Shown: positions 271-6,602 of the stretch, one piece after another | Layout of the letters: each line of letters begins with the position of its first letter | Numbering within the stretch: the stretch's first letter is position 1 | NCBI RefSeq assembly: GCF_006345805.1 | Contig: NW_021835016.1 | Coordinates: 1-42,917, forward strand | DNA: 42,917 nt | Source of the DNA: Octopus sinensis | Taxonomy: Eukaryota | Reading direction: 5' to 3' | Notes under the pieces: generated by a model | Told to the model about the DNA's origin: nothing | Databases searched by the model: none | What the model saw: only the letters and a program-made list of their open reading frames with translations | Made by a program: the position numbers and the translations under genes

Positions 271-412
271 CTATGAATGGATATATATATATATATATAT
301 ATATAATATTGTTGTATTTGGGGTTTATTGGCAGTTTAGCCAATAAAAACACACGCACTATATATTTGGTGTTCACTTGCTACAGCTTTATTTTATATTA
401 ATTGTATTTCGT

Positions 413-452
413 CCAGAATTCTTTCGTCACACTTCTGTGACCTCATCAGTGG
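413..452 (-). ncRNA. Minimal type I hammerhead ribozyme motif (Penelope-like/retrozyme terminus)
   Basis: Minus strand reads CCA-CTGATGA-G-GTCACA(gaag)TGTGAC-GAAA-GAAT-TC-TGG. Canonical CUGAUGA and GAAA core, 6-bp helix II, 3-bp helix I, vestigial helix III, UUC triplet. Confidence 0.8.
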
Positions 453-1022
453 TCCTTTGCTTTCTTCTTTCTTTTTTGTGTGTCTCTCTTTACTAAGGAT
501 CTGCCATTTTGTATTCCTATTGTATGTATCTTTATTTGCGCATGCGTATATATCCCAGTGTGTGTCTATGTTTAGTAGGTGTGTGTGTGTGTGTGGGGGG
601 ATTGTGCCTGCATTATCAGTATCCCCTGTTTATACTTGTTCGTTTAATTTACTTTTACTTATTTCATTCATTTGGTTATATCTAATTACCTTTTCTTTTC
701 TTCTTATTTTTTGTATTTAATTTAATATAATTTATTTTGTTAATGTATATAGTTATTTGATTCCATTCATTTATCTGTATATTGTATTATATTCATATTA
801 TTATCAGTTCATGGGGATCTTATTCTTTCATAAGTTGTGGTGTGTTGGGTGTGTGTGCTAATGTTCCCCCCACCCATTCACTACCACTCATAGCAGTCCA
901 ATAAACACATTCTGCCAGTAAAGAACATGAATCTATTAACTCCTACAGAATTCAAACCAAGACAGACGCACAGGATGGCCTTGAAGTCGAATATTTCAAA
1001 TTAACGGAGACAACACTTGAAT

Positions 1023-2420: not shown

Positions 2421-2621
2421 TGTACGAGCAAGTACATCAGCTGTTTGAGTGGCAATTCTAACATTGCCCAACCCTTTGTAAATTTAGCCTGTAAGCACAT
2501 ACGTAGAAACAAAATTTTAGAAAATTTTTTAAATAGAAAACAATTGCAGCGTGGAAGGTGTTTAAAAGTCATTTAAGAAACACACAAAAACTTTTAGATT
2601 CACCTCAACATTTAAATTTAA

Positions 2622-2672
2622 TTTGTCAAAATATTTTCGTCACTTTGAGACCGCGACCTGTTCACTGACAAA
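2622..2672 (-). ncRNA. Type I hammerhead ribozyme motif with G3-C8 swapped core (left copy)
   Basis: Minus strand reads TTTGTCA-GTGAACA-G-GTCGC(ggtctcaaa)GTGAC-GAAAATATT-T-TGACAAA. 7-bp helix I, 5-bp helix II with G10.1-C11.1, palindromic helix III AATATT. Confidence 0.7.
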
Positions 2673-2695
2673 ACTTCAGAGATGCAGCACGAAGT

Positions 2696-2746
2696 TTTGT
2701 CAGTGAACAGGTCGCGGTCTCAAAGCGATGAAAATATTTTGACAAA
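2696..2746 (+). ncRNA. Type I hammerhead ribozyme motif with G3-C8 swapped core (right copy)
   Basis: TTTGTCA-GTGAACA-G-GTCGC(ggtctcaaa)GCGAT-GAAAATATT-T-TGACAAA. Same fold as the left copy, but helix II closes with a G-U wobble. Confidence 0.65.
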
Positions 2747-3253
2747 TTAAATTTAAATGTTGAGGTGAATCTAAAGGTCTTTGTATGTTTCTTAAATGGC
2801 TTGTAAACACCTTCCACGCTGCAATTGTTTTCGTTCCAGCACACGATCTCAGATCGGGTTTTTTGCTATGCAAGAAATAACCCTAAAATTAGTTGTACAG
2901 ATAATATTGCCTCACCATTACCTAAGATTAACAAGACGAAATTAATTCCTGCACATACACAACATTCTCGCATGATTTCTTCACCTCAGTGCAATTGCCT
3001 CTTTTGCCCGAATACAGGTATGCCTTCTAGACTTATAACAGTAAATGCCCTTGAAAAAGTGCTGTATTATACATTAAGATTTTCACAACCACACGTAGTC
3101 CTACCCAATCTAGCAGTCATATTCACTAACAAGTGTCGGCTAAATTATACATACATACACGCATACATACTGATCAGATGAAAATTGGTGCTTTCAACGT
3201 GTGTGCGTGTGTGCATTTTTGGGTGTGCATTGTGTCTCTATGTGTAAGTATAT

Positions 3254-5959: not shown

Positions 5960-6602
5960 AAAACGCACACACACACACATACATACATAAATACATACAT
6001 ACATACATACATACATACATACATGTATACATATATATCAATATTTATAGTTATATCTATCTATATTTCCCCCCTCTCTCCCTTCTCTCTGTCCTTTCTC
6101 TCTCTCCCTATCTCTCTCTATATATATGTGTGTGTGTGTGTGTGTATGCATTTTATGTATAAGAAATTTATGATACATGCACACACACACACACATATAT
6201 ATATACACACATACATATATCTATATATATACACATGCGCATATGTGTGTAGGTATGTATACACGTATAATAATGTACGTGTGAATGTGTGTATATTATA
6301 TGAATGTATGATTGTAGGCATATATGTATGTACATTTTTACTAGTTTCGGACATTTTACAAGTTTCAGACACTGTGCCCATGCTGGAGTACTGTGTTCAT
6401 GTGTTTAGTAGAAAACATGTAGTCCATTATTTACATTCTGTGTACCCTTACATAACTTATCAATCACCATCGGTCAAACACAGATATCAAAACACATTAC
6501 ACACTGTTGCATATATATATGTGTGTGTGTATGTGTGTATGTGTGTAACACACAGCTAAATGTATATGCATACGCGCATATGTCATATGTAATGTGTGCG
6601 TG

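What the first reader, a model, noticed from the sequence alone, without database searches (positions are those of the whole stretch)
2622..2746. Hammerhead ribozyme pair with a natural G3-C8 compensatory swap in the catalytic core
Seen: both arms of the palindrome fold as type I hammerheads, with a 7-bp helix I, 5-bp helix II, GAAA box, palindromic helix III AAUAUU and a UUU triplet. The CUGANGA box reads GUGAACA. Known: positions 3 and 8 form a tertiary Watson-Crick pair in active hammerheads, and engineered G3/C8 double mutants regain some activity. Inference: both partners are changed, in both copies, and the one helix II substitution in each copy still pairs (G-U). This suggests a functional variant family that CUGANGA-based searches would miss. 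The extra purine after A9 matches the other hammerheads in this window.
Basis: partly seen in the sequence, partly recalled or inferred. Interest (0 to 1): 0.85.

Follow-up and report, generated by a model that had tools for sequence, protein, structure and literature searches.

The report
Swapped-core ribozyme of octopus retroelement
This palindrome is two inverted end-pieces of an abundant Penelope-type jumping gene whose hammerhead-shaped RNA motif has two paired core letters swapped (G3-C8 instead of C3-G8) in thousands of copies; two related jumping-gene families carry the other two known pairings, so the pair is likely kept by selection, but cutting is untested and this copy is likely inert.

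Summary
Both arms fit a minimal type I hammerhead with a GUGAACA core (0 hits in 20 shuffles). [quoted passage not shown] G3-C8 is the family's normal state: 1,557 of 1,725 pattern matches, with 0 C3-G8, and 98 of 100 listed copies of a younger subfamily. The best support for function lies outside the locus: sister PLE families carry U3-A8 and C3-G8 at the same place, with compensated helix II. The arms share one template, the G-U pairs are CpG decay, and a read-through RNA would be a 142-bp hairpin. Against a strict need for cutting: G3-G8 copies recur, a sister subfamily fixed A9C, and 31 of 44 copies start upstream of the core. My paper searches found no natural G3-C8, but a key paper (Lünse 2016/17) was not held. 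The scan noted G3-C8 before, in phages and protist PLEs (unchecked). Verdict: new variant of a known kind; activity untested.

The parts
2696..2746 (+). Minimal type I hammerhead motif, G3-C8 core (G3 2703, C8 2708, extra G 2710, predicted cut after U2739)
2622..2672 (-). Second copy of the same motif in the inverted arm (G3 2665, predicted cut after 2629)
2679..2874 (+). Short PLE insertion: defined 5' end (GAG|ATG at 2679-2684), hammerhead, 5' UTR and the first ~26 codons of the ORF ('tail'); stops about 12 nt before the family's usual 3' end
2536..2677 (-). Inverted, truncated duplicate of the same element (142 bp, 7 differences from the + arm)
2796..2874 (+). Start of the PLE ORF (homologous to MAYKHLPRCNCF... 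in L119), truncated here
2726..2729 (+). Helix II sites where the two arms differ; the family has C at both (CpG C-to-T changes giving G-U)

Best explanation
The locus is an inverted pair of short end-fragments of an autonomous Penelope-like retroelement family whose pseudo-LTR carries a minimal hammerhead motif with a fixed G3-C8 pair; the motif is likely a slow, dimer- or protein-assisted ribozyme kept by selection in the active master elements, while this genomic copy is likely an inert insertion by-product. Shown: the motif sits 55-56 nt upstream of the ORF start and again after the ORF; short copies end inside the ORF start, often have target-site duplications and often have an inverted partner. 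Inferred by analogy with the Anolis PLE (PMC11167929): the element's protein starts reverse transcription in the tail downstream of the motif, copies back through the mostly uncut RNA, and inversion during insertion makes the palindrome. Inferred: in tandem master transcripts two motifs pair through AAUAUU and cut after U17 at a low rate, which would trim or release unit RNAs. The G3-C8 swap keeps the Watson-Crick geometry at 3-8, as U3-A8 and C3-G8 do in the two sister families.
For: L119: motif at 2064, ORF from 2157 (RT motif YVDD, CX3CX2C linker, C-terminal GIY-YIG; one frame break), second motif at 6425; weak Pfam GIY-YIG hit, E 0.0012, below the cut-off. Counts: 1,557 of 1,725 G3-C8 and 0 C3-G8; second subfamily with a different loop II, 1,627 matches, 98 of the first 100 G3-C8; 8,098 tail matches. 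No other letter at >=3% at 2703 or 2708 in contigs of 4 runs from 4 other organism labels. Sister family C: 2,977 matches, 20 of 30 loci U3-A8 with intact UGA, helix II GTTGC/GCAAC. Sister family B: 3,409 matches, 25 of 30 CUGA-U-G, helix II GTCAC/GTGAC. U4, G5, A6, the extra G, G10.1-C11.1, GAAA and U16.1 are shared by the three families, whose ORF N-termini are only about 31-38% identical. ORF tree (A,(B,C)), SH-aLRT 92/97. Non-CpG core changes 29 versus 45 expected from the tail. A C3G/G8C double mutant partly rescues a PLE hammerhead (PMC11167929).
Against: No cleavage data exist. C8-to-G is in excess (45 versus 7 for the mirror change G3-to-C, p 7e-8) and is scattered over the copy tree, so broken G3-G8 templates seem to have been mobile. 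Family B's commonest core is CTGATGC (A9C, 21 of 30), an uncompensated change. No pile-up of copy ends at the cut site: 2 of 44, both at inversion joints explained by helix I microhomology. The triplet is UUU and the helix III duplex is weak (-0.2 kcal/mol); the cofold of two monomers did not give the double-hammerhead form. Family C has only a 3-bp helix I and one row in the tree. Cross-family homology of the motif rests on position and architecture, not on aligned flanks.
Confidence: 0.6

Rival explanations
1. Catalytically dead relic or non-catalytic structure: the fold is kept as a protein-binding or RT-guiding element, or simply inherited, and G3-C8 was fixed in a successful master without a need for cleavage.
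For: Recurrent G3-G8 copies, some with long ORFs (L124/L171); A9C common in family B; 31 of 44 copies come from RNA uncut at the motif; hammerhead mutants did not impair PAc insertion in vitro and no RNA ends were seen at the PAc cut site (PMC11167929); Naiad PLEs thrive without canonical hammerheads (PMC8557442 passages).
Against: Two separate double changes at 3/8 both ended in Watson-Crick pairs (about 1 in 9 if free; inference) while the other catalytic letters stayed fixed in families A and C. That pair is known only as part of the active-site fold.
Confidence: 0.3
2. One reading: the two arms at this locus are a functional ribozyme pair, each kept by selection.
For: Both arms keep a complete core and all helices, which only 34 of 90 sampled copies do for core plus helix II.
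Against: Opposite strands; the perfect hairpin is 77 kcal/mol more stable; inverted partners are routine (PMC8557442, PMC4209133); the arms differ at only 7 of 142 sites, so the insertion is simply young; the G-U pairs are CpG decay.
Confidence: 0.05
3. G3 was fixed for another reason, as the last base of a splice-acceptor-like TTTTGTCAG, and C8 followed as a compensation.
For: The sequence shows TTTTGTCAG ending at G3; the D. virilis PLE intron ends at helix I (PMC4209133).
Against: No copy among 44 starts at U4; the conserved acceptor-like signal lies 21 nt further upstream (195 copies).
Confidence: 0.05

Closest known systems
Minimal type I hammerheads (min-HHR) in PLE pseudo-LTRs (Cervera & De la Peña 2014, PMC4209133; read: main text parts 1-2 of 4, supplement parts 1-2 of 3)
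   Same: Type I layout, extra nucleotide between A9 and G10.1, G10.1-C11.1, palindromic short helix III, U17 common, location in pLTRs, opposite-strand pairs 100-700 bp apart, natural U3-A8 variant in S. mansoni.
   Different: G3-C8 core: none of the representative motifs in the extracted text of their Fig. S3 (56 stated) begins with GUGA; no cephalopod is listed; helix I here is longer (7 bp).
PAc (Poseidon, Anolis carolinensis) hammerhead and tail (Frangieh et al. 2024, PMC11167929; read: parts 1-2 of 4 and passages)
   Same: Hammerhead close to the ORF start; genomic copies ending about 100 nt into the ORF; AT-rich targets.
   Different: PAc is naturally C3-G8, and G3/C8 there is an engineered partial rescue. 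The ORF here starts 56 nt after the cut site rather than inside the motif, and the protein has a CX3CX2C linker (Neptune/Nematis type).
Natural hammerhead core variants (Perreault et al. 2011, PMC3088659; read: passages)
   Same: Covariation at 3-8 occurs in nature (U3-A8).
   Different: The passages seen report U3-A8 only; their final alignments discarded core mutants.
Short-stem-III hammerheads of PLEs (Lünse, Weinberg & Breaker 2016/17; not held, known only through the review PMC6765202 passages)
   Same: Short palindromic stem III, dimer cleavage, PLE association.
   Different: Could not check whether G3-C8 is among their variants.
Non-LTR retrozymes (bioRxiv 10.64898/2026.07.22.740005; read: part 1 of 5)
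   Same: Non-autonomous, PLE-derived, type I hammerhead.
   Different: Retrozymes are head-to-tail tandem units; these copies are dispersed single or inverted fragments of an autonomous PLE.

Membership tests
PLE minimal type I hammerhead | Three-way type I layout with helix I and helix II | tested here: met
   (the monomer MFE forms both helices)
PLE minimal type I hammerhead | Literal CUGANGA box (C3, G8) | tested here: not met
   GUGAACA; 0 of 1,725 family matches are C3-G8
PLE minimal type I hammerhead | Watson-Crick pair possible between positions 3 and 8; U4 G5 A6 A9, GAAA, U16.1, H17 present | tested here: met
PLE minimal type I hammerhead | Extra nucleotide after A9, G10.1-C11.1, palindromic 15.2-16.2 region | tested here: met
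   Family sequence G/GTCGC..GCGAC/AATATT; the + arm itself has G10.1-U11.1
PLE minimal type I hammerhead | Lies in the repeats flanking a PLE ORF | tested here: met
   L119, and 3' copies in L103, L105, L106, L107, L121
Hammerhead ribozyme (Rfam) | Match to a curated hammerhead covariance model | tested here: not met
   no hammerhead family among 139 matches at E<=1
Hammerhead ribozyme | Site-specific self-cleavage after N17 | not testable with these tools
   only contigs were available; genomic proxy inconclusive
EN+ Penelope-like element | Single ORF with RT and C-terminal GIY-YIG | tested here: met
   YVDD and ..TVYQIKC..YIGETSRS..H motifs read in L110/L121; Pfam hits weak: GIY-YIG E 0.0012, RVT_1 E 0.004 on homolog P0001, none on L121; no PDB match
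EN+ Penelope-like element | Partial tandems, 5' truncation, inverted 5' copies, tail | tested here: met
EN+ Penelope-like element | Spliceosomal intron upstream of the ORF | tested here: inconclusive
   CTAAC..TTTCTCAG|ATG in 195 copies and GAG|ATG ends in 17 of 62; could equally be a start site plus cap-derived G
Neptune/Nematis clades | CX2-5CxxC linker between RT and EN | tested here: met
   CQSNCAVC; feature from PMC8557442 passages
Neptune/Nematis clades | Placement with named reference elements in an RT tree | not tested
   no named reference PLE proteins were in hand
Non-LTR retrozyme | Head-to-tail tandem units each with a hammerhead, no ORF | tested here: not met

The most novel reading that the evidence does not exclude
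Three sister Penelope-like lineages in octopus genomes have each fixed a different Watson-Crick pair (C-G, U-A, G-C) at the hammerhead active site. The G3-C8 family, with thousands of copies in several species, is an active natural ribozyme whose deliberately low rate lets most RNA stay uncut for tail-primed reverse transcription. It would be the first high-copy animal example of a pair known in print only as an engineered mutant.
Probability: 0.35. Interest if true: 0.65.

Novelty: new variant of a known kind. Interest (0 to 1): 0.45.

Why it matters
Standard descriptors and Rfam miss this motif, so hammerhead counts in animal genomes, and claims that some PLE families lack hammerheads, may be too low. 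The three sister families form a natural experiment on the 3-8 tertiary pair, and the recurring G3-G8 and A9C forms give ready natural controls for an open question: whether PLE hammerheads need to cut at all. The locus itself is an ordinary insertion.

Tried and rejected
Rfam: no hammerhead; the mir-128 match over the hairpin (E 0.037, 26 bits versus a cut-off of 49) is spurious. Miniature DNA transposon, suggested by the short GAGATG/CATCTC end match: rejected, since duplications vary in length (9-13 bp in 10 of 30 loci, one an AT run) and the sequence is the start of an RT ORF. G-U pairs as evidence of selection: rejected. A single origin of G3-G8: not shown; 11 changes for 12 rows, like shuffles, but the tree is poorly resolved and one origin is not excluded. 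Genomic footprint of cleavage: no pile-up (44 ends from 36 regions, a part of the first 100 listed matches). Relatives in JGI metagenomes: none, so hammerheads beside the non-octopus homologs P0002 onward were not seen. RNA ends: all runs found were contigs, so none could be read. Paper searches for a natural G3-C8 found only engineered uses (PMC11167929; PMC8495972 and PMC3884650, passages); passages of PMC10085705 and PMC6155905 added nothing. Lünse 2016/17, Przybilski & Hammann 2007 and Martick & Scott 2006 were not held; supplements of Perreault 2011 and all bioRxiv supplements were not seen and may bear on novelty.

Full report
Observation. Both arms match a minimal type I hammerhead exactly as described. 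On the + strand: helix I 2696-2702/2740-2746, GTGAACA 2703-2709, extra G, helix II 2711-2715/2725-2729, GAAA, AATATT, U17 at 2739. On the - strand G3 is at 2665 and U17 at 2629. A descriptor leaving positions 3 and 8 free found only these 2 hits, and none in 20 shuffles. The inverted repeat is 142 bp per arm with 7 differences. Rfam has no hammerhead match here. One other hammerhead, CTGATGA G at -449, shares the extra purine.

What the sequence belongs to. The host genome is 2.7 Gb and microsatellite-rich; the closest named homolog of the element's protein is an Octopus vulgaris protein that falls inside sister family B, so I infer an octopus. The + arm is a ~200-bp repeat. It has a defined 5' end near ATGCAGCAC and a defined 3' end, 9-13-bp target duplications in 10 of 30 loci, and an inverted piece just upstream in 19 of 30 loci, 8 of which are one amplified event. 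Longer copies extend upstream through an acceptor-like signal (195 copies) and a microsatellite-rich stretch into a GIY-YIG coding region. L119 shows the whole unit: motif, ORF starting 56 nt after the cut site, RT, cysteine linker, endonuclease, second motif. The short copies are therefore the pseudo-LTR end plus the first ~100 nt of the ORF. This is the 'tail' that, in the Anolis element PAc, marks internal RT start sites (PMC11167929). Inverted 5' copies are a known PLE trait (PMC8557442; PMC4209133).

How fixed the swap is. With positions 3, 7 and 8 free, the 28-nt family pattern has 1,725 matches, control 0. Of these, 95 have G3 with another base at 8 (45 G, 40 T, 10 A) and 73 have another base at 3 (41 A, 25 T, 7 C; none compensated). 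That leaves 1,557 G3-C8 and no C3-G8. A subfamily with a different loop II and near-intact ORFs has 1,627 matches, and 98 of the first 100 are G3-C8. The tail pattern has 8,098 matches. The element is held by runs of 6 lettered organism labels; in the 4 runs laid (labels B-E) no other letter reached 3% at 2703 or 2708.

Evidence for selection. Copies decay almost neutrally. In 90 copies chosen by the upstream motif (90 of 195), CpG sites changed at 16% in helix II and 18% in the tail, changed helix II pairs still paired in 51 of 102 cases, and 34 of 90 kept core and helix II whole. Non-CpG core changes were 29 against 45 expected (p 0.0065), but the tail includes subfamily-specific sites, so this points to constraint on masters rather than on copies. 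The stronger signal is between families. Searching with the ORF start found two sister PLE families at 31-38% N-terminal identity. Family C (2,977 matches) has U3-A8 with an intact UGA in 20 of 30 loci. Family B (3,409 matches) has CUGA-U-G in 25 of 30. Helix II reads GTCGC/GCGAC, GTTGC/GCAAC and GTCAC/GTGAC in A, C and B, each difference compensated; U4, G5, A6, the extra G, GAAA and U16.1 are shared. A quick tree of 34 rows gives (A,(B,C)) with SH-aLRT 92 and 97; family C is a single row, and rows with under 250 aligned residues were dropped. The swap cannot be polarised from this.

Evidence against a strict need for cutting. C8-to-G is in six-fold excess over its mirror change (45 versus 7), and such copies lie on several backgrounds. 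Family B mostly has C at position 9 (21 of 30). Of 44 mapped 5' ends, 31 lie upstream of G3 and 2 lie at the cut site, both at inversion joints with 7 bp of helix I microhomology. PLE hammerheads cut poorly in vitro (PMC4209133). In PAc the C3G/G8C double mutant only partly restores cleavage, cleavage needs the protein, and dead mutants still insert. The triplet here is UUU, and the predicted dimer helix is weak.

The locus itself. The arms diverge on opposite strands. A read-through RNA folds into the long hairpin at -220.7 kcal/mol, against -143.6 with one hammerhead forced. The two G-U pairs are C-to-T changes from the family's GCGAC. Nothing suggests a role for this pair.

Mechanism, committed to. 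Shown: structure, location, copy numbers and covariation. Inferred: masters are transcribed from a tandem pseudo-LTR; the G3-C8 motif cuts slowly after U17 as a dimer or with protein help; reverse transcription starts in the tail and usually copies uncut RNA, giving ~200-bp insertions, often with an inverted duplicate (0.6). Main rival: a fold that no longer needs to cut (0.3).

Comparison and novelty. It works like, and sits where, a PLE minimal hammerhead does, but it fails the literal C3/G8 consensus and is untested for cleavage. Natural U3-A8 is published (PMC3088659 passages; PMC4209133). G3-C8 appeared in my searches only as an engineered mutant and is absent from the extracted text of Cervera's Fig. 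S3. Lünse et al., the paper most likely to hold it, could not be read. Earlier scan notes report G3-C8 motifs in phages and protist PLEs (unchecked), and none for this genome or sequence. Verdict: new variant of a known kind, interest 0.45.

Noticed in passing
window 300-520 (- strand, core at 449): Fragment of sister PLE family B with a canonical CTGATGA hammerhead core, extra G and palindromic helix III AGAATT-type sequence.
   Followed up: partly
L221-L250 (family B, 3,409 pattern matches): The commonest family B core is CTGATGC (A9C), 21 of 30; the A9 form goes with loop AGAAGT. An uncompensated change at a normally invariant core base, amplified to high copy.
   Followed up: partly
L191-L220 (family C, 2,977 pattern matches): High-copy U3-A8 hammerhead family with only about 3 bp of helix I, also often in inverted pairs.
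   Followed up: partly
e.g. L124/L171, L134, L141, L036: Unexplained six-fold excess of C8-to-G on several subfamily backgrounds; recurrent RT misalignment, mobile G3-G8 masters or an old polymorphism are possible.
   Followed up: partly
window 2679-2684 and L061-L090: Many copies begin GAG|ATG (17 of 62) where the genomic master reads CAG|ATG after a CTAAC/pyrimidine signal with TATATA about 30 nt upstream: either a tiny spliced exon or a start site with a cap-derived G.
   Followed up: partly
L079, L258, L276, L308, L309: Five near-identical copies share a 3-nt deletion in the hammerhead core, suggesting an amplified core-less variant or a duplication.
   Followed up: no
L031, L033, L034, L051, L053, L057, L058, L060: An inverted pair of this element is carried inside a larger repeat of 1-2 kb or more that was itself amplified.
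   Followed up: no
L111:5696-5724: Another inverted pair of a different C3-G8 hammerhead-like motif (CTGACGA core) inserted in the 3' region of a family A element.
   Followed up: no
family A copies, helix I position matching window 2742: A-to-G in 29 of 87 copies turns a U-A pair of helix I into U-G, a subfamily change that keeps pairing.
   Followed up: partly
window 30259 (+); L104:9682: Degenerate CTGAAGA...GAAACGATTGTA motif resembling yet another hammerhead-bearing repeat.
   Followed up: no
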